Shown piece by piece: positions 12,835-46,337 of a DNA stretch of 64,000 nucleotides (position 1 is the first letter of the stretch; the number at the start of each line of letters is the position of its first letter). The DNA lies in assembly GCF_003018235.1 (NCBI RefSeq), contig NZ_CP027437.1; one strand, 5' to 3'. This DNA comes from Escherichia coli (GTDB lineage Bacteria > Pseudomonadota > Gammaproteobacteria > Enterobacterales > Enterobacteriaceae). Under the pieces are notes generated by a model. That model was not told where the DNA came from, did not search any database, and saw nothing but the letters and a program-made list of their open reading frames with translations. The translations under genes and the position numbers were made by a program.

Positions 12835-13488
12835 TTACAGTATTTTTTTTTTAATCACCACAAACAGCGTGCCTAACAAGCCAGCGGTTAACAAGGCAAT
12901 TGGCAGGATCATCAGGAACGTCATTACCTGATCTTCATGGCGTTTAACGAACGGAATCATACTTAAGGCATAGCCGAAACTGGTTACCACGCTGACCCAC
13001 AGCAATCCGCTTAACCAGTTGAAAAACTGGAAACGGCGGTTTGGCAAACCGGAAATTCCCGCCATGGTTGGCAGCAGCGTACGGACAAATGCAAGAAAAC
13101 GTCCAGCCAGCAGCGCCAACAGACCGTGGCGGTCAAACATGCAGGTGGCGCGCTGGTGATATTTAGCGGGAAGCTGTGCCAGCCAGCCTTTCACCGTTTT
13201 GGTATTCCCTAACCAGCGCCCCTGAATATAACTTAACCAGCAGCCCAGACTTGCTGCGGCGGTCAGAATCGCAATCGTAGGCAGAAAATCCATAACCCCC
13301 TGGGCAATCAATGCGCCAGCCAATATCAACAAGCTGTCGCCTGGCAAAAATGAGGCGGGCAGCAGGCCGTTTTCTAAAAACAGCGTGGCAAACATGACAA
13401 AGTAAACAACGCTAACAATATGAGGATCCGCCAGCGCGGCAAAGTCGTGTTGCCAGAGCGCAGCGATGATATCTTGAATAACAGCCAT
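12835..13488 (-). CDS. yghB: DedA-family inner-membrane protein; C-terminus altered relative to the expected form (see findings)
   Basis: 217-aa ORF ending KKKIL; a 10-nt homopolymer lies at the 3' end and the adjacent frame gives KKKYCNA-stop (219 aa). Confidence 0.85.
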
Positions 13489-27130: not shown

Positions 27131-27655
27131 TTGAACTGCACCCCAAATGTTGGACACAATCTGACATCTGAAGGTGCAGTTTATGAAACATTCATTTGAA
27201 GTAAAACTTGCCGCTGTAAATCATTACCTGGCCGGTCATGCAGGCATCATTTCTACGGCAAAACTCTTTCAACTTTCTCACACCAGCCTCTCACACTGGA
27301 TTAATCTTTTTCTTCTTCACGGTCCTCAGGCACTGGATTGCAGACACAAGCGTAGCTATTCTCCTGAAGATAAACTTTGCGTGGTTCTTTATGCTCTCGG
27401 GCATTCTGAGTCTCTACCCCGGGTAGCTGCCCGGTTTAACATTCCCAGCCACAACACGGTTAAAAACTGGATAAAAGGCTACCGCAAATCTGGTAATGAG
27501 GCCTTTATCAGGCGCAGGAAGGAGAAAAGCATGACCCGTTCTGATGATACCCATGAAAACGAGGCAAACATGACGCCGGAAGAGATGAAGAATGAGCTGC
27601 GTTATCTTCGCGCAGAAAATGCATATCTGAAAGCCATGCAGGAGCATCTCCTGGA

Positions 27656-28563
<908 letters not shown>

Positions 28564-33380: not shown

Positions 33381-34073
33381 CTAGTGATACCCACGCGCGG
33401 TCATAAAATCCGTAATCGCTTTTTCTGCATCAACCAGTACCTTTTCCAGTGGCTGATTGGCGTCGATATCAACCAGTTGTGCACCACCAAAGGTTAACTG
33501 TGGCGTTATGGCTATCTTTCTTGCCAGCGATTCCCTTTTGTGGTCAGGCTTACGCGCGCAGGCCACGTCTAGATCGACATTGAGTTTGATGACCAGATCA
33601 GGTTTATGGCTCGCCATCCAGTGAAACGCTTTACGTTCCTGGCTTGCCAGCCATGAGACAAAACGACCACCTTCAATGTTAGGTGGGAACACTGTACCAT
33701 CGTAAGCGCCAGGAATTTGGTCCTGAGGATAACGGTCGGTTAGAACAATTAACCCGCGACGACGACAGGCAAGCATATGACGAAAGCGCAGTAAGCGACG
33801 GGCGACAAACGCTGTAATTACCAGCGCCGGAACAGGGCCAGGCAATTTTTTTGCTGTTTTCACCTGATTTCGTTCAATTGTTTTATGTAAGGATTTTCCC
33901 ATCAACGGTAATTTTGTCACTGCACGACCGACATTTCCGGCCTGTTTTCCTAAATGAACTCTTTCGGCTGCACCATATTTTTCGACAACGGTAATGAGAT
34001 GTTCACACACCGTTGACTTGCCTGAACCATCGCTACCAATAACGGCAATTAATGGAGGTGTTATTGACTGCAT
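33381..34073 (-). CDS. yghT: P-loop NTPase, kinase-like; paralogue of YghS and YghR
   Basis: 230-aa ORF; Walker [10 protein letters not shown]; shared C-terminal motif RKPDH with YghS/YghR. Confidence 0.8.
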
Positions 34074-34246: not shown

Positions 34247-34960
34247 GTGAATCAACGTAATATGTCAATAATTAATTCCACGCCAGTGCGTGTTATTGCC
34301 ATTGTAGGATGTGATGGTTCAGGTAAATCGACCCTCACGGCAAGCCTGGTAAATGAACTGGCAGCAAGAATGCCAACAGAACACATTTATCTCGGGCAAT
34401 CGTCCGGGCGAATTGGCGAATGGATTTCACAGCTCCCTGTTATTGGCGCACCTTTTGGGCGTTATTTGCGAAGTAAAGCGGCACATGTGCACGAAAAGCC
34501 CTCAGCACCGCCTGGCAATATTACTGCGCTGGTTATCTATCTGCTTTCCTGCTGGCGGGCGTACAAGTTTCGCAAAATGTTGTGTAAAAGCCAGCAAGGC
34601 TATCTGCTCATCACCGACCGCTACCCGCAGGTTGAAGTGCCGGGTTTTCGCTTTGATGGCCCGCAATTGGCAAAAACCACGGGCGGTAACGGTTGGATAA
34701 AAATGTTAAGGCAGCGCGAGCTGAAGCTGTACCAATGGATGGCGTCTTATTTGCCCGTATTGTTGATTCGTCTTGGCATTGATGAACAAACCGCGTTTGC
34801 GCGTAAACCTGACCACCAACTGGCAGCGTTACAGGAAAAAATCGCCGTTACGCCGCAACTGACATTCAATGGCGCAAAGATCCTTGAACTGGATGGTCGG
34901 CAACCAGCCGATGAAATTATGCAAGCGTCACTACGCGCAATTCACGCCGCGCTTTCCTGA
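34247..34960 (+). CDS. yghS: P-loop NTPase, kinase-like; paralogue of YghT and YghR
   Basis: 237-aa ORF; Walker A GCDGSGKST. Confidence 0.8.
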   Translation: MNQRNMSIINSTPVRVIAIVGCDGSGKSTLTASLVNELAARMPTEHIYLGQSSGRIGEWISQLPVIGAPFGRYLRSKAAHVHEKPSAPPGNITALVIYLLSCWRAYKFRKMLCKSQQGYLLITDRYPQVEVPGFRFDGPQLAKTTGGNGWIKMLRQRELKLYQWMASYLPVLLIRLGIDEQTAFARKPDHQLAALQEKIAVTPQLTFNGAKILELDGRQPADEIMQASLRAIHAALS

Positions 34961-34991: not shown

Positions 34992-35748
34992 ATGGATGCA
35001 CTACAAACACAAACTGTTAAGAGTACAACCGCGCCGCAGCCCAACTACATTCCGGGGCTGATTGCGGTGGTCGGGTGTGATGGCACCGGTAAATCCACGC
35101 TGACCACCGACCTGGTGAAATCGCTGCAACAACACTGGCAAACCGAGCGGCGCTATCTGGGGCTGCTCTCCGGCGAAGACGGCGACAAAATCAAACGATT
35201 GCCGTTGGTTGGCGTCTGGCTGGAACGGCGGCTGGCGGCCAAATCCTCGAAAACCCAAAGCATGAAAACCAAATTTCCAGCGCTATGGGCGGCGGTGATT
35301 ATGTACTGCTTCTCGCTGCGAAGAATGGCGAATCTACGCAAGGTTCAGCGACTGGCGCAAAGTGGCGTTCTGGTGGTCAGCGATCGCTTCCCGCAGGCTG
35401 AAATTTCGGGCTTTTATTATGACGGACCGGGGATCGGCGTCGAACGTGCGACCGGGAAAATCAGCATGTTTCTGGCGCAGCGCGAACGGCGTTTATACCA
35501 ACAAATGGCGCTACCGTCCTGAATTAATCATTCGCCTGGGCATTGATATTGATACTGCCATCTCCCGCAAGCCTGACCATGACTATGCCGAGCTGCAGGA
35601 CAAAATCGGCGTCATGTCGACGATTGGCTATAACGGCACAAAAATTCTTGAGATTGATTCCAGAGCGCCTTACAGCGAGGTGCTGGAACAGGCACAGAAG
35701 GCGGTTTCTCTGGTTGCCATCGTTTCTGACCGCCGAAGTTTAACTTAA
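34992..35748 (+). pseudogene. yghR: P-loop NTPase YghR interrupted by a frameshift near 35511 (two ORF pieces, 34992-35522 and frame +1 to 35748)
   Basis: Alignment to YghS/YghT (…LYQWMASYLP… / …FHWMASHKP…) shows the frame changing after QQMA; the repaired product would be 252 aa. Confidence 0.7.
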
Positions 35749-35793
35749 GGCAGGCGGGATACTTTTTACTATCAACGATAAGGTCAGGCTGAA

Positions 35794-37143
35794 TTGGCGG
35801 GTTTTAACATCAAACATTGGTTTGCAGATGGCGCGTTTCGCACCATTATTCGCAATAGCGCCTGGTTAGGCTCCAGTAATGTCGTGAGCGCCTTGCTGGG
35901 TCTGTTGGCGCTCTCGTGTGCCGGTAAAGGGATGACGCCCGCCATGTTTGGCGTACTGGTGATTGTGCAATCGTACGCCAAGTCGATCAGCGATTTTATT
36001 AAGTTTCAGACATGGCAGCTGGTGGTTCAGTACGGAACGCCAGCCTTGACCAACAATAATCCGCAGCAATTTCGCAATGTTGTCTCATTTTCCTTCTCGC
36101 TGGATATCGTCAGCGGCGCGGTGGCGATTGTCGGCGGCATTGCCTTACTGCCATTCCTTTCCCATTCATTAGGTCTGGATGACCAAAGCTTTTGGCTGGC
36201 GGCGCTCTATTGCACGCTCATTCCTTCAATGGCTTCCTCCACGCCGACCGGCATTCTGCGTGCGGTAGATCGCTTTGATTTGATTGCTGTACAGCAGGCG
36301 ACGAAACCTTTTCTGCGCGCAGCGGGGAGCGTCGTAGCCTGGTATTTTGACTTTGGTTTTGCGGGTTTTGTTATTGCCTGGTACGTGTCGAATCTGGTTG
36401 GCGGCACCATGTACTGGTGGTTTGCCGCGCGCGAATTACGCCGCAGAAATATCCATAACACCTTCAAATTGAATCTGTTTGAGTCTGCCCGACACATTAA
36501 AGGCGCGTGGAGTTTTGTCTGGTCAACCAACATTGCCCACTCCATCTGGTCGGCACGTAACTCGTGCAGCACAGTGCTGGTGGGGATCGTGTTAGGACCC
36601 GCTGCCGCCGGGTTATTTAAAATCGCCATGACATTCTTCGACGCCGCCGGAACGCCAGCGGGTTTACTGGGTAAAAGTTTTTACCCAGAGGTGATGCGTT
36701 TAGATCCGCGCACCACCAGACCGTGGTTGTTAGGCGTGAAGTCCGGTTTACTGGCGGGCGGAATCGGTATTCTGGTGGCGCTCGCGGTGTTGATCGTCGG
36801 CAAGCCGCTCATTTCGCTGGTGTTTGGCGTTAAGTATCTCGAAGCGTATGACCTGATTCAGGTGATGCTGGGCGCAATTGTGATTTCGATGCTGGGCTTC
36901 CCACAGGAGTCATTGCTATTGATGGCGGGAAAACAGCGCGCTTTTCTCGTGGCGCAAACCATCGCCTCAATCGGCTACATCGTATTGCTGTTCATGTTCT
37001 GTCATCTGTTTGGCGTGCTGGGGGCTGCATTTGCTTACTTCGCTGGGCAATGTCTGGATGTGGTGTTCTCGCTAATTCCAACCTTAAAGGCATTTTTTCA
37101 GCGCCATTCCTTGCTTTATAACGCAGCCGGAGAGAAATCCTGA
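35794..37143 (+). CDS. yghQ: Multi-pass membrane protein of the MOP/Wzx-like flippase superfamily; start codon uncertain
   Basis: 449-aa ORF (maximal), highly hydrophobic; K-12 annotation is shorter, to my recollection. Confidence 0.7.
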   Translation: MAGFNIKHWFADGAFRTIIRNSAWLGSSNVVSALLGLLALSCAGKGMTPAMFGVLVIVQSYAKSISDFIKFQTWQLVVQYGTPALTNNNPQQFRNVVSFSFSLDIVSGAVAIVGGIALLPFLSHSLGLDDQSFWLAALYCTLIPSMASSTPTGILRAVDRFDLIAVQQATKPFLRAAGSVVAWYFDFGFAGFVIAWYVSNLVGGTMYWWFAARELRRRNIHNTFKLNLFESARHIKGAWSFVWSTNIAHSIWSARNSCSTVLVGIVLGPAAAGLFKIAMTFFDAAGTPAGLLGKSFYPEVMRLDPRTTRPWLLGVKSGLLAGGIGILVALAVLIVGKPLISLVFGVKYLEAYDLIQVMLGAIVISMLGFPQESLLLMAGKQRAFLVAQTIASIGYIVLLFMFCHLFGVLGAAFAYFAGQCLDVVFSLIPTLKAFFQRHSLLYNAAGEKS

Positions 37144-37967
37144 TGATGAGAAAATATTTCCCGCTTGAGGCTAGCGAGCGTCTATTTGTTGCGATTGAAG
37201 AAGATGATGTCGTTGATGCACAGGTCAGTTTGCCGCCGACTATCGCACTAAGTTGTACCACCGAAATCATCCATGATAATTACGCGTTATGCCTGAAATT
37301 CTGGCTGGATGGTGTTAATCGTCAGGAGCTACTGCGTTTAATCCGCAAACAGGCGAAAGGCGATGAGCTGACGACAGACGAGCGCAAAAAGTATAAATAC
37401 ATGCGAGCGCGCTACAAGCATCTGCGCTTTGCGCAACGGCTGTATTTAAAGAAGCATCAGGCCGGATTTTTATTCGGCAAAACGACCGTTTTTTTGGGGC
37501 GTTTTCAGGACGGCTTTCGTAACGGTAAGAAAAATATTGTGTCGTATTACGGCAACCTGTTACGGGTTTATTTAAGCTCTCCGGTCTGGTCGTTGGTGAA
37601 CTATTCATTACGCCATAGCCAGTTAGAAAGCGTAAGCGGTTTTATTGCCTATCGGCAAAAGCAAATGCATACCCTGAAAGAGATAATTGCCAAACCGCGA
37701 CTAACTGGCAGGGAATTTCATGATGTGCGAAAAATCATCAGCCAGCAGGTTTCTTATTACGACACCCTAAGATCGCTTGATCCTGAAAATAAAGAGGCGT
37801 TACAGATTTCCCGCTTCCTCGCCGCCATTAATGGCCTGATGGGGGATAAACACGACGACATGGTGGCGGATGATATGGAAAACCGCCAGTCGTATGATGC
37901 ACCGGTGGCGCTGGATAGCGATATTCGCCAGCGCTTAGAGCTGCTGATTTCGCGTTTTCCGCTATAA
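37143..37967 (+). CDS. Hypothetical protein, 274 aa, no recognisable domain
   Basis: Start overlaps the yghQ stop (TGATG); charged, non-membrane. Confidence 0.55.
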   Translation: MMRKYFPLEASERLFVAIEEDDVVDAQVSLPPTIALSCTTEIIHDNYALCLKFWLDGVNRQELLRLIRKQAKGDELTTDERKKYKYMRARYKHLRFAQRLYLKKHQAGFLFGKTTVFLGRFQDGFRNGKKNIVSYYGNLLRVYLSSPVWSLVNYSLRHSQLESVSGFIAYRQKQMHTLKEIIAKPRLTGREFHDVRKIISQQVSYYDTLRSLDPENKEALQISRFLAAINGLMGDKHDDMVADDMENRQSYDAPVALDSDIRQRLELLISRFPL

Positions 37968-37975
37968 CCGGAGCA

Positions 37976-38539
37976 ATGATGTCATCTCGTTTGATTATTG
38001 CGCTGATTATCATGCTCTTAGCCCCGGGTGTGCAGGCACACAATTTCGTCACTGGCAAAACGGTTACCCCTGTTTATATCCAGGAAGGCGGCGAGCTGCT
38101 TCTGAATAGCGACGACGAAATTCACTACCAAAAGTGGAACAGCACACAGCTGGCGGGAAAAGTTCGCATTATTCAGTATATCGCCGGGCGTAAGTCGGCG
38201 AAGAAAAAGAACTCACTGTTAATTAAAGCGGTTGAAGCGGCAAACTTTCCGCAGGATCGTTTTCAGCCCACCACCATTGTGAACACCGATGATGCCATTT
38301 TTGGTACTGGCTATTTTGTCGTTGGCAAAATCGAAAAAAATAAACGCCGCTATCCGTGGGCGCAATTCGTTATTGACGGCAATGGACAGGGACGCGTTGC
38401 CTGGCGGTTGCCGGAGCAGAGTTCAACCATTCTGGTGCTGAATAAAGCCGGGCAAATTCAGTGGGCAAAGGACGGCAGCCTGACGCCGGAAGAGGTAGAA
38501 CATGTCATTGCGCTGGCGCAGAAACTGATCAATGAATAA
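37976..38539 (+). CDS. YtfJ-family periplasmic protein
   Basis: 187-aa ORF; signal peptide MMSSRLIIALIIMLLAPGVQA; conserved TTIVNTDDAI and WAKDGSLTPEEV blocks recalled from E. coli YtfJ. Confidence 0.55.
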   Translation: MMSSRLIIALIIMLLAPGVQAHNFVTGKTVTPVYIQEGGELLLNSDDEIHYQKWNSTQLAGKVRIIQYIAGRKSAKKKNSLLIKAVEAANFPQDRFQPTTIVNTDDAIFGTGYFVVGKIEKNKRRYPWAQFVIDGNGQGRVAWRLPEQSSTILVLNKAGQIQWAKDGSLTPEEVEHVIALAQKLINE

Positions 38540-38569
38540 AAAATTCAAAGGATTGAGGGCGTTAGTGAG

Positions 38570-39640
38570 ATGAAGCTGGTTGAACACTACATCATGCGTG
38601 GTACGCGCCGTCTGGTGCTGATTATCGTCGGTTTTCTGATCTTTATTTTCGCCAGCTACTCCGCACAGCGTTATCTGACCGAAGCGGCAAATGGGACATT
38701 AGCTCTTGATGTTGTGCTGGATATTGTTTTCTACAAGGTGCTGATTGCACTGGAGATGTTGTTACCTGTTGGACTGTATGTGTCAGTTGGCGTGACGCTA
38801 GGGCAGATGTATACCGACTCGGAAATTACCGCTATTTCTGCGGCGGGGGGCAGTCCGGGACGCTTGTACAAAGCCGTTCTTTATCTGGCGATACCGCTAA
38901 GTATTTTTGTCACCCTTCTGTCGATGTATGGTCGTCCGTGGGCTTATGCGCAGATTTATCAACTGGAGCAACAGTCACAGTCGGAGCTGGATGTTCGCCA
39001 GTTGCGGGCAAAGAAATTTAACACTAACGATAACGGACGAATGATCCTTTCGCAGACGGTTGATCAGGATAATAATCGCCTGACTGACGCGCTGATTTAT
39101 ACTTCTACTGCCAATCGAACCCGCATTTTCCGCGCCCGTTCGGTTGATGTGGTTGACCCATCACCTGAGAAACCGACCGTTATGTTGCATAACGGGACCG
39201 CCTATCTTCTCGATCATCAGGGGCGTGACGACAACGAACAGATCTACCGTAATCTGCAATTACATCTGAATCCGCTGGATCAAAGCCCTAACGTCAAACG
39301 CAAAGCAAAATCGGTCACGGAGCTGGCGCGCTCCGCCTTTCCTGCCGATCATGCCGAACTGCAATGGCGACAAAGCCGTGGCCTGACAGCATTGTTGATG
39401 GCGCTGCTGGCCATTTCATTAAGTCGGGTAAAACCGCGGCAAGGGCGATTTTCAACGTTATTGCCACTGACGTTGCTGTTTATTGCCATTTTTTATGGCG
39501 GCGACGTCTGCCGTACGCTGGTGGCTAACGGCGCGATTCCCCTCATTCCTGGTTTGTGGTTAGTACCCGGACTCATGCTAATGGGCCTGCTGATGCTGGT
39601 CGCACGCGACTTCTCATTGCTGCAGAAATTTTCCCGATGA
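38570..39640 (+). CDS. LptF-like permease (YjgP/YjgQ family)
   Basis: 356-aa ORF; N-terminal TM helices, periplasmic beta-jellyroll-like insert, C-terminal TM helices. Confidence 0.65.
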   Translation: MKLVEHYIMRGTRRLVLIIVGFLIFIFASYSAQRYLTEAANGTLALDVVLDIVFYKVLIALEMLLPVGLYVSVGVTLGQMYTDSEITAISAAGGSPGRLYKAVLYLAIPLSIFVTLLSMYGRPWAYAQIYQLEQQSQSELDVRQLRAKKFNTNDNGRMILSQTVDQDNNRLTDALIYTSTANRTRIFRARSVDVVDPSPEKPTVMLHNGTAYLLDHQGRDDNEQIYRNLQLHLNPLDQSPNVKRKAKSVTELARSAFPADHAELQWRQSRGLTALLMALLAISLSRVKPRQGRFSTLLPLTLLFIAIFYGGDVCRTLVANGAIPLIPGLWLVPGLMLMGLLMLVARDFSLLQKFSR

Positions 39641-40716
39641 ATGTTTTCAGTCGCTATTTAATCCGTCATCTCTTTCTCGGTTTTGCCGCCGCCGCAGGGC
39701 TATTGCTGCCGCTTTTTACCACCTTCAACCTGATTAACGAACTGGATGATGTCAGCCCGGGCGGTTATCGCTGGACTCAGGCGGTGCTGGTGGTGCTGAT
39801 GACCTTACCGCGTACACTGGTCGAACTTTCGCCGTTTATCGCATTATTGGGAGGGATTGTTGGCCTGGGGCAGTTATCGAAAAACAGTGAGCTTACCGCC
39901 ATTCGCAGCACGGGGTTTTCTATCTTCCGTATTGCACTAGTGGCGCTGGTTGCCGGGATATTGTGGACTGTTTCGTTAGGCGCGATAGATGAGTGGGTGG
40001 CGTCGCCATTGCAGCAACAGGCGCTGCAAATCAAATCGACTGCCACCGCGTTGGGGGAGGACGATGACATTACCGGCAATATGCTTTGGGCCAGGCGCGG
40101 TAATGAATTTGTGACGGTGAAATCGCTGAACGAGCAGGGCCAGCCTGTGGGCGTGGAGATATTTCATTATCGCGACGATCTCTCGCTCGAATCCTACATT
40201 TTTGCACGCAGTGCCTCCATTGAAGACGACAAAACATGGATCCTGCATGGTGTGAATCATAAAAAATGGTTGAATGGCAAGGAAACGCTGGAAACATCAG
40301 ATAATCTTGCCTGGCAATCGGCCTTCACCAGTATGAATCTTGAAGAGTTATCGATGCCGGGAAATACTTTTTCTGTCCGTCAACTTAATCATTACATCCA
40401 TTATTTGCAGGAAACTGGGCAACCCAGCAGCGAATACCGCCTTGCACTGTGGGAAAAACTGGGACAACCCATCCTGACCCTGGCGATGATTTTGCTGGCT
40501 GTGCCGTTTACCTTTAGTGCCCCGCGTTCGCCTGGGATGGGTAGCCGTCTCGCTGTAGGCGTCATCGTGGGCTTACTTACCTGGATCAGCTATCAAATCA
40601 TGGTCAATCTGGGATTGCTATTTGCGTTGAGCGCACCTGTTACCGCGCTCGGTTTACCGGTAGCGTTTGTGCTGGTGGCGTTGAGCCTGGTGTATTGGTA
40701 TGACAGACAACATTAA
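39637..40716 (+). CDS. LptG-like permease (YjgP/YjgQ family), paired with the upstream gene
   Basis: 359 aa from ATG at 39637 (MNVFSRYLIRHLF), overlapping the upstream stop (ATGA). Confidence 0.65.
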   Translation: MNVFSRYLIRHLFLGFAAAAGLLLPLFTTFNLINELDDVSPGGYRWTQAVLVVLMTLPRTLVELSPFIALLGGIVGLGQLSKNSELTAIRSTGFSIFRIALVALVAGILWTVSLGAIDEWVASPLQQQALQIKSTATALGEDDDITGNMLWARRGNEFVTVKSLNEQGQPVGVEIFHYRDDLSLESYIFARSASIEDDKTWILHGVNHKKWLNGKETLETSDNLAWQSAFTSMNLEELSMPGNTFSVRQLNHYIHYLQETGQPSSEYRLALWEKLGQPILTLAMILLAVPFTFSAPRSPGMGSRLAVGVIVGLLTWISYQIMVNLGLLFALSAPVTALGLPVAFVLVALSLVYWYDRQH

Positions 40717-40746
40717 ACCCGCCGTGGCGCAACACCACAGCGGGCT
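40717..40746. terminator. Hairpin between the convergent permease and lipid-synthesis operons
   Basis: cccgccgtgg-N7-ccacagcggg, 10-bp stem with one mismatch. Confidence 0.4.
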
Positions 40747-40750
40747 CACA

Positions 40751-41923
40751 TTACTGCTTCAGAGTAGCGAACGCTTGAATGATGGCATCAATTTGCTCAC
40801 GACTGTGGGCAGCGTTTACGCTACAGCGCAGCAGCGTGATGCCTGCAGGCGCGGCAGGTGGCAGGATAAGATTCACATAAACGCCCAGCGAAATAAGCTC
40901 GCGCCAGATGCGTAAACCTTCCTCTTTCGAACCGATTATTACTGGCACTACCGGGCTAATATGTGAACTTAACTCATAATCCAGTTTTTGCAGACCGTCA
41001 TACAGATGGTTGGCATTATCCATCAGCTTTTGCCGCAACTCTGGTTGTGAGACAATGGTTCTTAACGACGAGCGCACGGTCGCAATGCAGGACGGAGAAG
41101 GAGAGGCGGTAAAAATATACGGGCGGCTGCCGTAGCGCAACACTTCCATCGCTTCCGAACCGACAGCAAAACCGCCAATCGAGGCCAGGCTTTTACTGAA
41201 GGTACCAACGATAATATCCACATCATCTTCAACGCCAACGGCTTCAGCCAGTCCGCGCCCCGTTGCGCCTAACACGCCAAACGAATGCGCTTCATCGACA
41301 ATCAAATAACCACCGAGACGACGTTTGATATCAACAATTTCCGCCAGCGGCGCAACGTCACCGAGCATACTGTAGATGCCTTCAACGATGATAATCGCCT
41401 CTTTTGCCCGTTCACCGAGGCGAACCATGCGCCGTTCCAGATCTTTAGCATCGTTATGGCGGAAACGAATAATTTCCGCGCCACCGAGAGAACAGGCGTC
41501 ATAAATACTGGCGTGGCTGTCGGCATCCAGTAACACCACGGCGTTATGGTCGGCAAGTGCGCTGATGACGCCTAAATTAGCGGTATAACCGGTTGAAAAA
41601 ACGATAGCGGTAGGGCGATTAAAAAACTCGGCGATCTCTTTCTCTAACGCCAGATGCGGCGCATAACTGCCGTTTGCCATACGAGAACCGGTGGTGCCGG
41701 TGCCTTGGGCCGCTAACGCTGCCTGACCTTCGGCGATGGCATCATGATTAAAGGTTAAACCGAGATAATTATTGGTCCCGGCCAGAATCACTTTTTTATT
41801 GCCGATCCGACCTTCGGTGGCGGAATACACTTCATCAATACAGGTGCCAAACGGTGTTAACCCGTTGTCACTAAATTGCAGTCGCTCGCCAGCAAGGCGC
41901 GCATATTTATCGTATAGCCCCAT
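40751..41923 (-). CDS. PLP-dependent alpha-oxoamine synthase, serine palmitoyltransferase-like
   Basis: 390-aa ORF; PLP-lysine motif GTFSKSLASIGG (SPT-like rather than BioF GTFGKA or Kbl GTLGKA) and DADSHAS histidine motif. Confidence 0.75.
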   Translation of the reverse strand: MGLYDKYARLAGERLQFSDNGLTPFGTCIDEVYSATEGRIGNKKVILAGTNNYLGLTFNHDAIAEGQAALAAQGTGTTGSRMANGSYAPHLALEKEIAEFFNRPTAIVFSTGYTANLGVISALADHNAVVLLDADSHASIYDACSLGGAEIIRFRHNDAKDLERRMVRLGERAKEAIIIVEGIYSMLGDVAPLAEIVDIKRRLGGYLIVDEAHSFGVLGATGRGLAEAVGVEDDVDIIVGTFSKSLASIGGFAVGSEAMEVLRYGSRPYIFTASPSPSCIATVRSSLRTIVSQPELRQKLMDNANHLYDGLQKLDYELSSHISPVVPVIIGSKEEGLRIWRELISLGVYVNLILPPAAPAGITLLRCSVNAAHSREQIDAIIQAFATLKQ

Positions 41924-42171
41924 TATTTATTCTCCAGCCATGGAAGTAGTGTTTCCATTAATTGCGCAGGGGTTTTGACATCCAGCAGAATATTAATAGG
42001 AATGGAAATATCGAATCTGTCTTCCAGCATCATTAAGAGATCCATCACTTTGATCGACTCCAGGCCAAGATCGTTGACGAGATCGCTGTCGGGCTTAATT
42101 TCCACACCGTTTTCGACCAAATCCTGTAAACAGGAAAGGATGTAATCCATTACTATTTCACGATTTACCAT
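41923..42171 (-). CDS. Dedicated acyl carrier protein
   Basis: 82-aa acidic ORF with phosphopantetheine-site-like DLGLESIKVMDL; stop overlaps the downstream start. Confidence 0.7.
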   Translation of the reverse strand: MVNREIVMDYILSCLQDLVENGVEIKPDSDLVNDLGLESIKVMDLLMMLEDRFDISIPINILLDVKTPAQLMETLLPWLENK

Positions 42172-42202
42172 AGAAACGTTAACACACCTTTAAACAAGAC
42201 AA

Positions 42203-43117
42203 TCAAAATAGCCCGTTGCGTAATGCGTGTTCCAGGCTAATCCCGGGAAACCAATTAATATCTTCAGAAATACGGTTATTACTTGCCGACCAGTCGGCAT
42301 GAGTTAATTCACGGATTTTCGAACGAGTCAGCATCGGTTCTTTACCCGCCAGACGGCTCAACGCGGTACTGATATCCGCAAGGCAGGTGAGTAGCGGCAG
42401 AGGAATACCGACCATCCGCACGGAACCGCAACGGGCGTCGGCGGCAAGCTGTCTTACGCGTTGCCAGTCATAGCCTCCGGCGACGCCATCGCATAATTCA
42501 TAGGTTTGCGTCTGTACAGTTTCGGCGCTTAACCACTGACCCACTGCTTGCGCAAAATCGGTGACGTGAAGAAAAGAGAGCTGTGTCTCTGGCGTGCCAA
42601 GTCGTGGCAGCAGGCCGCGCAGCATCCAGTCAAACAGCGGTTTTAACTCTTTATCGCCGGGACCATACACGGCTGTCGGGCGAAAAACGCCCAGCGTAAT
42701 TTCATCAGCCATTGCAGTCAGCCGTTGTTCGGCGACGTGTTTGGAATTTGCGTACCAGGAGAGTTCGGGATGGCGCGCCGCCAGCGAAGAGATAAACAGA
42801 AAACGTTGGCAAAAGCCGCTCTCTTTTGCCGCTTGCATCAGGCGCAGGCTGCCGTCAACGTTACAGCGGGTAAAAATCTCTTCTTTGTGTCCGCGCACTT
42901 GTCCGGCGCAATGGACCACCGCGCTGGCTCCGGCAACCAGTTCGCTAAGCGAATGTGTATCTTCCAGCGAACCGCGCACCCAGATGAGATTATCATTGAC
43001 GTGAGCGCGGGCAGTACGCGTCAATGCGCGAACGTGAAAGCCGCGGGCGAGCAGGTTATCGATAATATATTTACCGATAAACCCGGTAGCGCCCGTCACC
43101 GCGACAGTTTGATTCAT
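42203..43117 (-). CDS. NAD(P)-dependent epimerase/dehydratase-fold reductase (extended SDR)
   Basis: 304-aa ORF; Rossmann motif GATGFIG; catalytic YANSK (YxxxK). Confidence 0.7.
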   Translation of the reverse strand: MNQTVAVTGATGFIGKYIIDNLLARGFHVRALTRTARAHVNDNLIWVRGSLEDTHSLSELVAGASAVVHCAGQVRGHKEEIFTRCNVDGSLRLMQAAKESGFCQRFLFISSLAARHPELSWYANSKHVAEQRLTAMADEITLGVFRPTAVYGPGDKELKPLFDWMLRGLLPRLGTPETQLSFLHVTDFAQAVGQWLSAETVQTQTYELCDGVAGGYDWQRVRQLAADARCGSVRMVGIPLPLLTCLADISTALSRLAGKEPMLTRSKIRELTHADWSASNNRISEDINWFPGISLEHALRNGLF

Positions 43118-44850
43118 GCCAGGGATTCCTGCACATGAAGGCTTGCAGCATAACGTTTTTTCGCTTCCGCACGGGCAGGCTTGCCGGAGGACGTTCGGGG
43201 AATACTGTGGGGCGGCAACAGATCGATAGCCGCTGTTACGCCAAATTCGCTTTGGATCCGTGCTACCAGTGCGTGGATAAGCTGCCCACGACGTTCTTCG
43301 TCGCTGATCCTACACTGGATCTGCAGAATGATTTTTTCCTGGGCGGTAACAAAAGCAATCGCATCGCCAGAATGAATTTCCGGTTCCTGTTCCGCAATAT
43401 ATTCAATATCCTGCGGCCAGATATTACGGCCACGAATAATAATCAGATCTTTAATGCGTCCGGTGACATACAGATAACCGTCCAGCAGATAACCGAGGTC
43501 GCCGGTGTCTAACCAGCCCGTCGCGGCAATCTCGTCTTGTGAAATCTGGTCGCCAAAGTAACCGCTCATCAGGCTAGGGCCGGAGATGCAAATATGGCCT
43601 ACCACACGTTCCGCGACAGGTATACCTGCTTCATTGCGGATTTCAATGCCATGTTCCGGCAACGCTTTACCGCAGTTGACGAAAGTCGATACGGCGCGTG
43701 TTTCAGCATCCGGCGCGACGGCTTTGCCCTGATATTCGAGGATGTCGCGATCCACTTCGTTAACCACAACCCCGGAAGCTTCATCAGAGAAGCTGACAGC
43801 CAGCGCATTTTCTGCCAGTCCGTAGCACGGCATGAAAGTTTTATCGTCAAAGTTGACCTGACGGAAACATTCAGCGAATTGATGGAGTTGTTCTGCGGAG
43901 ATGGGTTCTGCACCAATACCAGCGACGCGCCAGCAGGAAAGATCCAGTTCAGCGAGATCTTTTTCATTCACGCGGCGCTGGCACAATTCATAGCCAAACG
44001 GCGGCGCAACGGAAACGGTGCCGCGATTTTTACTGATCAATTTAAGCCATTGCAGAGGACGCATGGCAAAATCCTGAGTGCGCAAATAATCTACTGAAAG
44101 CTGCGTGGCGACGGGGGGCAGGAGAAAGCCGACCAGTCCCATATCATGGTAGAAAGGCAGCCAGGAGACGCAGCGGTCGCCAGGGCGTAATTTAATGCCA
44201 TCGTGGCTTATAGCACGTAGATTAGCCATCACTTCGCGATGGGTGATAATGACGCCACGGGGAAAACGGGTGCTGCCGGAGGTGTACTGGAGGTAGGCGA
44301 TATCGTTCGGAACTGGACGCTGGAGCGCAACATCGGCTTCCGGTAATGCCTTAAACCAGGCGTGGCTTAAAACATGTAATTCGGGGTTGTTATGCGTAGC
44401 GGCATTGACCAGTGGCAACCACTCATCACCAGTGATAATGGCTGCGGGCTGGCAACTTGCCAGTAAACCCTGCAGTTTGGCGCTCCAGGAATCCCGCTGA
44501 CCGACGCCCATTGGAATCGCCAACGGGACGGCGACTAAGCCGGCATACTGGCAGGAAAAAAAAGCCTCTACGAACCCGCTACTGGTTTCGGCAATCAGCG
44601 CCACGCGATCGCCTTTTTTCAGGTTCAGCGATAACAACCGCTTCGCACCAGCTTCGGCACGCGCTTTTAACGTCTGATATTCCAGTTGATCTTCAAGTTG
44701 GCAACGTCTGTCATAAAAATTCATTCCGGCGCTACTCAGAGCGGCGTAGTCCAAAGCATCAACCAGCGTTGGAAAATCGGCATAGCGCATAGGTAGGGAA
44801 TGCGTAAAGATTTTATTAGACATATACACCACGAAAAAATTGGATATCAA
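43114..44850 (-). CDS. Adenylate-forming acyl-AMP ligase / acyl-ACP synthetase-like enzyme; start uncertain
   Basis: 578-aa ORF; AMP-binding motif YTSGSTRFPRG; 4-nt overlap with the downstream reductase gene. Confidence 0.7.
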   Translation of the reverse strand: MISNFFVVYMSNKIFTHSLPMRYADFPTLVDALDYAALSSAGMNFYDRRCQLEDQLEYQTLKARAEAGAKRLLSLNLKKGDRVALIAETSSGFVEAFFSCQYAGLVAVPLAIPMGVGQRDSWSAKLQGLLASCQPAAIITGDEWLPLVNAATHNNPELHVLSHAWFKALPEADVALQRPVPNDIAYLQYTSGSTRFPRGVIITHREVMANLRAISHDGIKLRPGDRCVSWLPFYHDMGLVGFLLPPVATQLSVDYLRTQDFAMRPLQWLKLISKNRGTVSVAPPFGYELCQRRVNEKDLAELDLSCWRVAGIGAEPISAEQLHQFAECFRQVNFDDKTFMPCYGLAENALAVSFSDEASGVVVNEVDRDILEYQGKAVAPDAETRAVSTFVNCGKALPEHGIEIRNEAGIPVAERVVGHICISGPSLMSGYFGDQISQDEIAATGWLDTGDLGYLLDGYLYVTGRIKDLIIIRGRNIWPQDIEYIAEQEPEIHSGDAIAFVTAQEKIILQIQCRISDEERRGQLIHALVARIQSEFGVTAAIDLLPPHSIPRTSSGKPARAEAKKRYAASLHVQESLA

Positions 44851-45194
44851 AAATAAAATGACAATAATGCGGTGGATTATATAGGCATAAAAGATAAATG
44901 AGATAGTATTTTCATCAGTGTGAAAATGAACATTGATTTAAATAATGAGTTTGAGTTTTTTTGTTTTTATTGTGAATGATATTTAATTTATGAATGTATT
45001 AAGAAGAAGCCTTGTCCGGTCGCCTTAAATCGACAAAAGGCATTGTGGCGCTTCTGTGTAGTCTCTGACCTTATCGTAATCATTAATAAATGCTATTTAT
45101 TCGTCGTTTGTATTCATTGGGTTGATTATTAAGGTGCCGTTCGTTGCTGTTGCAACCTGTTTGTCACCGTTAATTATTTGTTACCCACAGAACT

Positions 45195-46337
45195 ATGGAA
45201 TGCGATCTGCTGATGATTAAAATTGAAAAAGTAATTAATAAAAATGACCTTAAGGCATTTATCGCTTTTCCGTCATCACTTTATCCCGACGATCCAAACT
45301 GGATACCCCCTTTATTCATTGAACGCAACGAGCATTTGTCTGCGAAAAATCCGGGGACGGACCATATCATCTGGCAGGCGTGGGTGGCAAAAAAAGCCGG
45401 GCAGATAGTTGGGCGAATTACCGCGCAAATCGATACCTTGCACCGTGAGCGTTACGGTGAAGATACCGGTCATTTCGGCATGATTGACGCCATTGATGAT
45501 CCGCAGGTTTTTGCCGCGTTGTTTGGCGCAGCGGAAGCGTGGTTGAAGTCACAAGGAGCAAGTAAGATCAGCGGGCCTTTCAGCCTGAATATCAATCAGG
45601 AAAGCGGATTACTGATTGAAGGTTTCGATACACCACCCTGTGCGATGATGCCGCACGGTAAACCGTGGTATGCCGCGCATATTGAACAATTGGGTTATCA
45701 CAAAGGCATTGATTTACTGGCGTGGTGGATGCAGCGAACCGATCTCACTTTCTCTCCGGCGCTAAAAAAACTGATGGATCAGGTGCGTAAGAAGGTGACC
45801 ATTCGCTGCATCAATCGCCAGCGGTTTGCCGAAGAGATGCAGATCCTGCGTGAGATTTTCAACTCTGGCTGGCAGCACAACTGGGGATTTGTGCCGTTTA
45901 CCGAACATGAATTCGCGACCATGGGCGATCAACTTAAATATCTGGTGCCGGACGATATGATCTACATCGCTGAGATTGATTCTGCACCCTGCGCGTTTAT
46001 TGTCGGCTTGCCAAACATCAACGAGGCGATTGCCGATCTGAACGGATCGCTCTTTCCCTTCGGCTGGGCAAAATTGCTGTGGCGTTTAAAAGTCAGCGGT
46101 GTGCGAACTGCGCGAGTACCGCTGATGGGCGTGCGGGACGAGTATCAGTTTAGCCGCATCGGCCCGGTGATTGCGCTGTTATTGATTGAAGCCTTACGCG
46201 ATCCGTTTGCCCGCCGGAAGATCGATGCGCTGGAAATGTCATGGATCCTCGAAACCAATACAGGCATGAATAACATGCTGGAACGCATTGGGGCGGAGCC
46301 GTACAAGCGTTACCGATTGTATGAAAAGCAGATTTAA
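45195..46337 (+). CDS. yghO: GNAT-fold acyltransferase-like protein, intact
   Basis: 380-aa ORF, divergent from the lipid operon across an AT-rich region; GNAT assignment is from recollection of this family, not a motif scan. Confidence 0.6.
   Translation: MECDLLMIKIEKVINKNDLKAFIAFPSSLYPDDPNWIPPLFIERNEHLSAKNPGTDHIIWQAWVAKKAGQIVGRITAQIDTLHRERYGEDTGHFGMIDAIDDPQVFAALFGAAEAWLKSQGASKISGPFSLNINQESGLLIEGFDTPPCAMMPHGKPWYAAHIEQLGYHKGIDLLAWWMQRTDLTFSPALKKLMDQVRKKVTIRCINRQRFAEEMQILREIFNSGWQHNWGFVPFTEHEFATMGDQLKYLVPDDMIYIAEIDSAPCAFIVGLPNINEAIADLNGSLFPFGWAKLLWRLKVSGVRTARVPLMGVRDEYQFSRIGPVIALLLIEALRDPFARRKIDALEMSWILETNTGMNNMLERIGAEPYKRYRLYEKQI

What the first reader, a model, noticed from the sequence alone, without database searches (positions are those of the whole stretch)
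35505..35522. Frameshift splits yghR, probably a 2-nt deletion in a Ser codon
The yghR frame reads …RERRLYQQMA then LPS-stop, while the +1 frame continues …YRPELIIRLGIDIDTAISRKPDH…, which aligns with YghS (…MASYLPVLLIRLG…) and YghT (…[13 protein letters not shown]…). A single c at 35511 sits where a Ser codon is expected. The repaired protein would be 252 aa. This is either a real pseudogene in this strain or an assembly error.
Basis: seen in the sequence. Interest (0 to 1): 0.5.

Follow-up and report, generated by a model that had tools for sequence, protein, structure and literature searches.

The report
Lineage-specific 2-bp deletion pseudogene of yghR
One of three paralogous, uncharacterised kinase-like genes of E. 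coli (yghR) has been knocked out by a real, clonally inherited two-base deletion in this strain's lineage; this is an ordinary young pseudogene and not an assembly error.

Summary
The yghR frame (34992..) ends ...QQMA-LPS-TGA at 35520-35522, and the +1 frame carries the rest of YghR to the normal stop at 35746-35748.

Against intact 759-nt alleles, the window lacks exactly the two A's of codon 174, CAA (Gln). The residual C is 35511 and the repaired protein is 252 aa.

The lesion is real. The identical junction was read in six other public assemblies, three from SRA runs and three NCBI drafts. They carry different private SNPs elsewhere. The exact 176-aa product is recorded on 15-17 contigs. 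None of 5,426 complete RefSeq E. coli genomes has the deleted junction, and no intact copy of this exact allele is known. The site is not a homopolymer or repeat, and yghR is the only frame-breaking lesion among 40 genes compared.

A confident AlphaFold model (pLDDT 89, thymidylate-kinase-like fold) shows what the truncation removes:
- strands β4 and β5;
- the invariant Arg193 (RKPDH motif);
- the C-terminal helix.

The product should therefore be inactive. yghR is dispensable, being absent from about 15% of genomes, deleted in strain DGF-298 and broken independently elsewhere. Paralogues yghS and yghT are intact. Verdict: ordinary, low interest.

The parts
34992..35522 (+). Truncated yghR ORF: 173 native residues (P-loop GCDGTGKS, DRF motif), then the aberrant residues Leu-Pro-Ser and a premature TGA.
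   Evidence: The exact 176-aa product is on 15-17 public contigs.
35511..35512 (+). Deletion junction. C35511 is the first base of the former CAA (Gln174) codon. T35512 is the first base of the former TAC (Tyr175). The two A's between them are missing.
   Evidence: DNA alignment with intact alleles. Identical junction in L004-L006 and L008-L011. No tandem repeat or flanking repeat at the site.
35520..35522 (+). Premature TGA stop codon created by the frameshift.
35512..35748 (+). Out-of-frame 3' remnant of yghR (former codons 175-252 plus the original stop). It encodes β4, the RKPDH motif with invariant Arg193, β5 and the C-terminal helix, and has no additional lesions.
34247..34960 (+). yghS, an intact paralogue 40% identical to YghR, immediately upstream. 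Context and possible redundancy.
33381..34073 (-). yghT, an intact paralogue 33% identical to YghR. Context and possible redundancy.
35794..37143 (+). yghQ-like polysaccharide/lipid flippase-family gene (449 aa), 46 nt downstream of the original yghR stop and intact. It is the gene that could suffer polarity from the premature stop; that effect is inferred only.

Best explanation
yghR in this E. coli lineage is a young pseudogene, made by a spontaneous deletion of the two adenines of codon 174 (CAA, Gln).

Translation shifts frame after Ala173, adds Leu-Pro-Ser, and stops at TGA 35520-35522. The 176-aa product keeps the Walker-A P-loop and the DRF motif. It loses two of the five core β-strands (β4, β5), the helix carrying the family-invariant Arg193 (RKPDH, inferred to be LID-like), and the C-terminal helix. 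It therefore cannot complete the thymidylate-kinase-like fold and is inferred to be inactive.

The mutation arose once and is inherited clonally in a small lineage of roughly 20-40 public assemblies. The loss is probably tolerated because yghR is dispensable and two paralogues (yghS, yghT) remain intact.

Shown here: the deletion, its exact position, its reproducibility across independent assemblies, and which structural elements are lost. Inferred: loss of function, and a neutral or nearly neutral fitness effect.
For: **The lesion**
- There is one 2-nt gap against intact alleles, in codon CAA174.

**Reproducibility across assemblies**
- The identical junction was read base by base in six other assemblies: SRR11357309, SRR21813801, SRR22548703, GCA_025590685.1, GCA_026700625.1 and GCA_012128275.1.
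- These assemblies differ from the window and from each other by private SNPs or a private pitB indel.
- The exact truncated protein is on 15-17 contigs, including a 5,012,557-bp chromosome.
- All four distinct places shown that carry the window's exact YghQ allele have the deleted junction and none has the intact one.

**Not an artefact-prone site**
- There is no tandem repeat at the site, no repeat flanks it, and the run is only AA.
- Among 40 CDSs in about 44 kb compared with a reference, yghR is the only frame-breaking lesion.
- The one homopolymer difference, in yghB, is a shared natural allele.

**A young lesion**
- The repaired allele differs from the nearest intact one by 5 nt (4 synonymous plus S95F).
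- There is no second lesion downstream.

**Structure**
- The AF2 model has pLDDT 89.2 and pTM 0.86, with β4 at 176-184, β5 at 219-223 and a final helix at 228-251.
- R193 is invariant and P177, L183, A190, P195 and D223 are nearly invariant among 48 homologues.
- The fold matches thymidylate kinases, Foldseek E about 1e-7, probability 1.0.

**Dispensability**
- 802 of 5,426 genomes have no yghR match.
- O103:H2 strain CEC12044 has an independent frameshift.
- Many other broken fragments exist in public data.
- The whole yghQRST block is deleted in the viable genome-reduced strain DGF-298 (PMC10652928).
Against: - No raw reads, transcript data or protein data were available, so loss of function is inferred from structure only.
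- The 13+1 and 17+2+1 'similar places not shown' were not read base by base.
- Some Logan run assemblies and NCBI draft assemblies may be the same isolate. L005 and L009 share the same two SNPs.
- The function of YghR is unknown, so 'dispensable' refers to laboratory growth and to gene presence or absence across genomes.
Confidence: 0.9

Rival explanations
1. Assembly or sequencing error: the strain really has an intact yghR and two bases were dropped during base-calling or consensus.
For: The finding rests on a single window. No complete RefSeq E. coli genome shares the junction, as would also be expected for an error.
Against: - The same junction is present in six other assemblies made from different runs by different pipelines (Logan contigs and NCBI drafts), each with private SNPs elsewhere.
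- The site is not a homopolymer or repeat.
- The rest of the 44-kb region has no other frame-breaking indel.
Confidence: 0.02
2. Functional split or recoded gene: full-length YghR is restored by a +1 ribosomal frameshift near UCC-UGA, or the two halves are made as separate peptides that reassemble.
For: - The downstream frame is still fully open and undecayed.
- A stop codon directly follows the shift site, as at the prfB frameshift site (own knowledge).
Against: - More than 4,600 E. coli genomes encode the gene as one uninterrupted ORF, so the break is not a conserved feature.
- No Shine-Dalgarno-like stimulator or slippery codon is visible upstream of the stop (by inspection).
- The only ORF covering the remnant starts at a GTG 160 nt upstream in the wrong frame and adds 50 unrelated residues.
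- The break lies immediately before core strand β4, at the end of a helix, so the two pieces would not be independent domains.
- The undecayed remnant is explained just as well by the youth of the lesion.
Confidence: 0.03
3. Selected (adaptive) inactivation: loss of YghR, or Rho-dependent polarity of the premature stop on the downstream yghQ lipid/polysaccharide cluster, was favoured in this lineage.
For: - yghR is lost or broken repeatedly and independently in E. coli.
- The deletion is fixed in every member of the lineage examined.
- The premature stop leaves 226 nt of untranslated mRNA before yghQ.
- No promoter-like site was found in the yghR-yghQ spacer (a weak test).
Against: - Repeated loss is equally what neutral decay of a dispensable, paralogue-backed gene predicts.
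- Fixation in a clonal lineage needs no selection.
- There is no phenotype or expression data.
- The downstream genes are all intact.
Confidence: 0.05

Closest known systems
E. coli K-12 YghR (b2984; 'uncharacterized ATP-binding protein YghR', 252 aa), annotated by NCBI as 'nucleoside/nucleotide kinase family protein'
   Same: The window gene is its orthologue. It has the same position between yghS and yghQ. The repaired product is 252 aa, about 98-99% identical to intact alleles and in the same 90% cluster as YGHR_ECOLI.
   Different: The window allele lacks the AA of codon 174 and encodes only 173 native residues. It also carries a private S95F substitution.
Thymidylate (dTMP) kinase family (TIGR00041 / Pfam PF02223; e.g. 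S. aureus TMK, PDB 4qgh)
   Same: The model has the same P-loop NMP-kinase fold: Foldseek E 1.4e-7, probability 1.0, TM 0.53/0.65. It has a Walker A motif, a DR(F) motif after β3, and a conserved Arg after β4.
   Different: - Identity is only 16-19%.
- HMM scores are far below the family thresholds: 30.9 bits against a cut-off of 83.25, and Pfam E 0.18.
- YghR has an extra helical insertion at about residues 60-125.
- The RefSeq label 'dTMP kinase' on YghS and YghT is not supported as an equivalog.
Other strain-specific yghR pseudogenes, e.g. the O103:H2 CEC12044 yghR annotated 'frameshifted'
   Same: The same gene is inactivated by a small frameshifting indel, and PGAP flags such cases as pseudogenes.
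   Different: They are independent events with different lesions. CEC12044 is 758 nt long, consistent with a net 1-nt loss whose position was not located, and it has the intact CAA174.

Membership tests
Frameshift pseudogene (unitary, lineage-specific) | Intact orthologues with one uninterrupted ORF exist. | tested here: met
   4,611 complete E. coli genomes hold a near-full-length match. All listed span 759 nt apart from one of 758 nt and three of 774 nt. The 759-nt copies checked carry an annotated CDS of 252 aa.
Frameshift pseudogene (unitary, lineage-specific) | An indel whose length is not a multiple of three, creating a premature stop that removes conserved parts. | tested here: met
   A 2-nt gap in codon 174 gives TGA three codons later. 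It removes β4, invariant R193, β5 and the C-terminal helix.
Frameshift pseudogene (unitary, lineage-specific) | The lesion is reproducible in independent sequence data, so it is not an artefact. | tested here: met
   The identical junction is in six other assemblies with private SNPs. The exact product is on 15-17 contigs.
Frameshift pseudogene (unitary, lineage-specific) | No functional product is made. | not testable with these tools
   This needs proteomics or a complementation assay. It is inferred from the structure model only.
dTMP kinase (TIGR00041 / PF02223) | Profile-HMM score above the curated family threshold. | tested here: not met
   TIGR00041 scores 30.9 bits against a cut-off of 83.25. 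Pfam Thymidylate_kin gives E 0.18-0.29.
dTMP kinase (TIGR00041 / PF02223) | P-loop NMP-kinase fold with a Walker A motif and a DR(Y/H/F) motif. | tested here: met
   The AF2 model matches many TMK structures. GCDGTGKS lies at residues 28-35, and D131 (nearly invariant) and R132 (invariant) are conserved.
dTMP kinase (TIGR00041 / PF02223) | Catalyses dTMP + ATP -> dTDP + ADP. | not testable with these tools
   No biochemical study of YghR, YghS or YghT was found.
Programmed +1 ribosomal frameshift (prfB type) | The frameshift site is conserved among orthologues. | tested here: not met
   No complete RefSeq E. coli genome has the junction. All have the in-frame CAA.
Programmed +1 ribosomal frameshift (prfB type) | A slippery codon before the stop, plus an upstream Shine-Dalgarno-like stimulator. 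| tested here: not met
   By inspection, the sequence ...CAACAAATGGCGCTACCGTCCTGA has no GGAGG-like element and no CUU-type slippery codon.
Phase-variable contingency locus (slipped-strand mispairing) | The indel lies in a homopolymer or short tandem repeat tract. | tested here: not met
   The intact site is GCGC-AA-TACC. Tandem Repeats Finder found nothing in 35300-35750, and no repeat flanks the site.

The most novel reading that the evidence does not exclude
The truncation is not neutral. One possibility is that the P-loop-only 176-aa fragment has acquired a new or dominant role. The other is that the premature stop lowers expression, through polarity, of the downstream yghQ / lptFG-paralogue / serine-palmitoyltransferase lipid cluster. 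In either case the repeated breakage of yghR across E. coli would reflect selection acting on envelope-lipid production.
Probability: 0.04. Interest if true: 0.3.

Novelty: already known. Interest (0 to 1): 0.05.

Why it matters
It matters little. The work corrects an annotation detail: the damaged codon is Gln174, not Ser, and the lesion is a real allele rather than an assembly error. The junction could serve as a marker for a small E. coli lineage that is not closely represented among complete RefSeq genomes. It adds one more case to the repeated loss of the uncharacterised yghR gene, which supports the view that yghR is dispensable and probably redundant with yghS and yghT. It opens no new biological question.

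Tried and rejected
- **Assembly error.** Rejected after finding the same junction in independent assemblies and no other frame-breaking lesion in 40 neighbouring genes.
- **yghB homopolymer difference.** The yghB A10 versus A9 difference looked like a possible sign of poor assembly. A10 proved to be a shared natural allele, 100% identical in other complete genomes.
- **Ser-codon hypothesis.** Rejected. All intact alleles have CAA, Gln.
- **Phase variation or slippage.** Rejected, because there is no repeat at the site.
- **Programmed frameshift or split gene.** Rejected, because the break is not conserved and no signals are present.
- **Naming the lineage.** This failed. A scan of the GTDB species representatives for the junction found nothing. 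The SRA run numbers appear in no searchable paper. The best complete-genome identity is only 98.3-99.0%.
- **Intact ancestor of the allele.** The repaired F95 protein is not in the 15-billion-protein collection.
- **Function from sequence.** The sequence search of solved structures gave no meaningful hit. Only the fold comparison was informative.
- **Function from the literature.** Only list entries were found.
- **Promoter and terminator scan.** The scan around yghR-yghQ found nothing above chance.

Full report
**1. Observation**

The window ORF 34992..35522 (+) encodes 176 aa ending ...RERRLYQQMALPS, followed by TGA at 35520-35522. The +1 frame reads ...RYRPELIIRLGIDIDTAISRKPDHDYAELQ... without a stop until 35746-35748. 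In window coordinates:
- ATG 35505-35507 is Met172.
- GCG 35508-35510 is Ala173.
- C35511 is the single base left from the next codon.
- The shifted reading is CTA-CCG-TCC-TGA.

**2. What the lesion is**

A megablast of 34992-35748 against 5,426 complete RefSeq E. coli genomes found a near-full-length match in 4,611. The 757 query bases align to 759 bases in almost all of them. I fetched three loci: L001 (strain 382634_2f, the closest allele at 99.1%), L002 (N2250) and L003 (CEC12044). All were aligned around the site.

The only gap at the break site is two bases wide: GCG CAA TAC CGT in the intact alleles against GCG C--TA CCG in the window. Only removal of 'AA' reproduces the window sequence. 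The damaged codon is therefore CAA, Gln174.

All 14 intact members of the 90% protein cluster that I read have MAQYRP.

**3. Real allele or assembly error**

Evidence from independent assemblies:
- The exact 176-aa product is present in the public protein collection on 15 contigs, the longest 5,012,557 bp. The contig look-up read 17 contigs that carry it.
- Three Logan assemblies of different SRA runs (SRR11357309, SRR21813801, SRR22548703) have the identical junction.
- Those three differ from the window by 1 SNP, 2 SNPs, and a private 1-nt deletion in pitB respectively.
- I then asked which contigs carry the window's exact YghQ allele, from the gene next door. This brought in three NCBI draft assemblies: GCA_025590685.1, GCA_026700625.1 and GCA_012128275.1.
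- All three have the deleted junction and none has the intact one. Two of them carry private SNPs and the third is identical to the window over the stretch read.
- In the NCBI drafts no gene is called between yghS and yghQ, as would be the case for a locus treated as a pseudogene.

Evidence on rarity and sequence context:
- None of the 5,426 complete RefSeq genomes has the deleted junction. The best 91-nt match is 95.7% and spans 93 nt.
- The repaired F95 protein is not in the collection at all.
- The site is not a homopolymer or repeat.

Evidence on assembly quality:
- I compared 40 annotated CDSs of strain FDAARGOS_448 with the window. yghR is the only frame-breaking lesion.
- A 1-nt difference in yghB, A10 against A9 at the extreme 3' end, is a common natural allele that is 100% identical in other complete genomes.

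The deletion is therefore a genuine mutation that arose once and is inherited clonally in a small lineage.

**4. Age of the lesion**

The repaired allele differs from the nearest intact allele by five substitutions, four synonymous plus S95F. Only two of them lie downstream of the break, and there is no second stop or indel. This is the signature of a recent inactivation.

**5. What is lost**

YghR is uncharacterised. The literature gives only list entries:
- a transposon-mutant table (PMC9278758);
- a computational GalR-motif hit (PMC5110547);
- an inversion inventory in Shigella sonnei (PMC12795559);
- the 24-kb deletion that removes yghQ, yghR, yghS and yghT in the viable genome-reduced strain DGF-298 (PMC10652928).

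Profile searches give only a P-loop and sub-threshold similarity to dTMP kinase. TIGR00041 scores 30.9 bits against a cut-off of 83.25, and Pfam Thymidylate_kin gives E 0.18.

I collected homologues from the 1.84-billion-protein representative library, where 1,365 score at E≤1e-3. I aligned 48 full-length ones and predicted the structure, which came out at pLDDT 89.2 and pTM 0.86. Foldseek against the PDB returns thymidylate kinases as the top 50 hits, the best being S. aureus TMK 4qgh_B at E 1.4e-7, probability 1.0 and 16-19% identity.

The order of elements in the model is:
- β1 19-28, followed by the P-loop
- α 34-45
- β2 51-55
- a helical insertion at 62-123
- β3 127-131, followed by DRF
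- α 156-173
- β4 176-184
- α 187-193, with Arg193 at its end in the RKPDH motif
- α 199-209
- β5 219-223
- α 228-251

The frameshift falls exactly at the end of helix 156-173. It removes β4, β5, the invariant Arg193, the nearly invariant P177, L183, A190, P195 and D223, and the terminal helix. A five-stranded P-loop sheet that has lost two strands, together with the conserved arginine (inferred to be LID-like), should not fold or catalyse. This step is inference.

**6. Why the loss is tolerated**

- yghS (40% identity) and yghT (33%) are intact in the window.
- 802 of 5,426 genomes have no yghR match.
- An O103:H2 strain carries an independent frameshift that PGAP annotates as a pseudogene.
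- The representative library holds many other fragments 78-99% identical to parts of YghR. They break near codons 53, 55, 77, 83, 92, 116 and 229, and one has an internal deletion. Some of these may be assembly errors.
- The whole block is deleted in DGF-298.

**7. Rivals**

- *Assembly error.* Effectively excluded by section 3.
- *Programmed +1 frameshift or two-peptide expression.* The break is not conserved. No stimulatory signal is visible. The only ORF covering the remnant begins 160 nt upstream in another frame. The cut falls just before a core strand and not between domains.
- *Phase variation.* Excluded by the lack of any repeat.
- *Adaptive loss or polarity on yghQ.* This cannot be excluded, but nothing supports it. 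The promoter and terminator scan was uninformative.

**8. Provenance**

NCBI labels the assemblies that carry the same neighbouring alleles as E. coli. The lineage is not closely represented among complete RefSeq genomes. The best identity is 98.3% over 16 kb around yghR and 99.0% over the first 20 kb. Per-gene identity to one of the best-matching genomes ranges from 94.8% to 100%, a mosaic typical of recombination. I could not name the lineage.

**9. Verdict**

The open question is settled: this is a real, young, lineage-specific pseudogene of a dispensable paralogue. It is an ordinary, already-known kind of feature of low interest.

Noticed in passing
window 12835-12870 (- strand), 3' end of yghB: The window has an A10 run where strain FDAARGOS_448 has A9. 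This changes the last residues from ...KKKYCNA to ...KKKIL (217 aa against 219 aa). The A10 version is 100% identical in other complete E. coli genomes, where it is annotated as an intact yghB. It is therefore a natural length polymorphism at a homopolymer and not an error.
   Followed up: yes
P0075 and many other ~470-530-aa homologues: Many of the listed distant homologues carry the YghR-like P-loop domain at the C-terminus (about residues 270-490), behind an N-terminal extension of about 250-270 aa. In P0075, the one checked, that extension is a Pfam NTP_transf_5 (uncharacterised nucleotidyltransferase) domain. This hints that the family works together with a nucleotidyltransferase, for example phosphorylating and then nucleotidylating a small molecule. 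It does not look like a dTMP kinase role.
   Followed up: partly
window 35794-46335: Downstream of the yghT/yghS/yghR trio lies a conserved cluster: a yghQ-like MOP-family flippase, a 274-aa hypothetical protein, a YtfJ-family protein, second copies of lptF and lptG, serine palmitoyltransferase (spt), an acyl carrier protein, an epimerase/dehydratase, a fatty acyl-AMP ligase and yghO. It looks like a sphingolipid-like lipid synthesis and export cluster. To my knowledge it is largely missing from K-12.
   Followed up: no
L006 (SRR22548703), equivalent to window 32436: One sister isolate has a private 1-nt deletion in pitB (AAAAAAGG becomes AAAAAAG). It splits pitB into products of 213 and 279 aa. 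This is either a second pseudogene in that isolate or a short-read assembly error next to a homopolymer.
   Followed up: partly
L003 (E. coli O103:H2 CEC12044) 1001-1758; proteins P0017-P0086: There are independent yghR lesions elsewhere. CEC12044 has a 758-nt allele annotated 'frameshifted'. Many truncated or fused fragments 78-99% identical to YghR break at other codons. Three genomes carry a 774-nt allele, a 15-nt in-frame insertion.
   Followed up: partly
window 27174-28531: An IS3-family insertion sequence lies between hybG and yghU: orfA of 176 aa at 27174-27704 and orfB of 240 aa at 27809-28531. It sits where FDAARGOS_448 has an annotated IS1397-family transposase with a programmed frameshift.
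   Followed up: no
window 43114-44790 (- strand), fatty acyl-AMP ligase: There is a 12-nt in-frame length difference relative to FDAARGOS_448.
   Followed up: no
whole window: No complete RefSeq E. coli genome is closer than 98.3-99.0% over 16-20 kb. Per-gene identity to one of the best-matching genomes varies from 94.8% (YtfJ-family gene) to 100% (hypA, hybG, ACP). The window therefore comes from a sparsely sampled lineage with a recombination mosaic.
   Followed up: partly
window ~35115-35130, inside yghR: The sequence GTGAAATCGCTGCAAC is the reverse complement of the GalR-operator-like motif listed for yghR/b2984 in a computational table of PMC5110547. It is present and unchanged in the window.
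   Followed up: no
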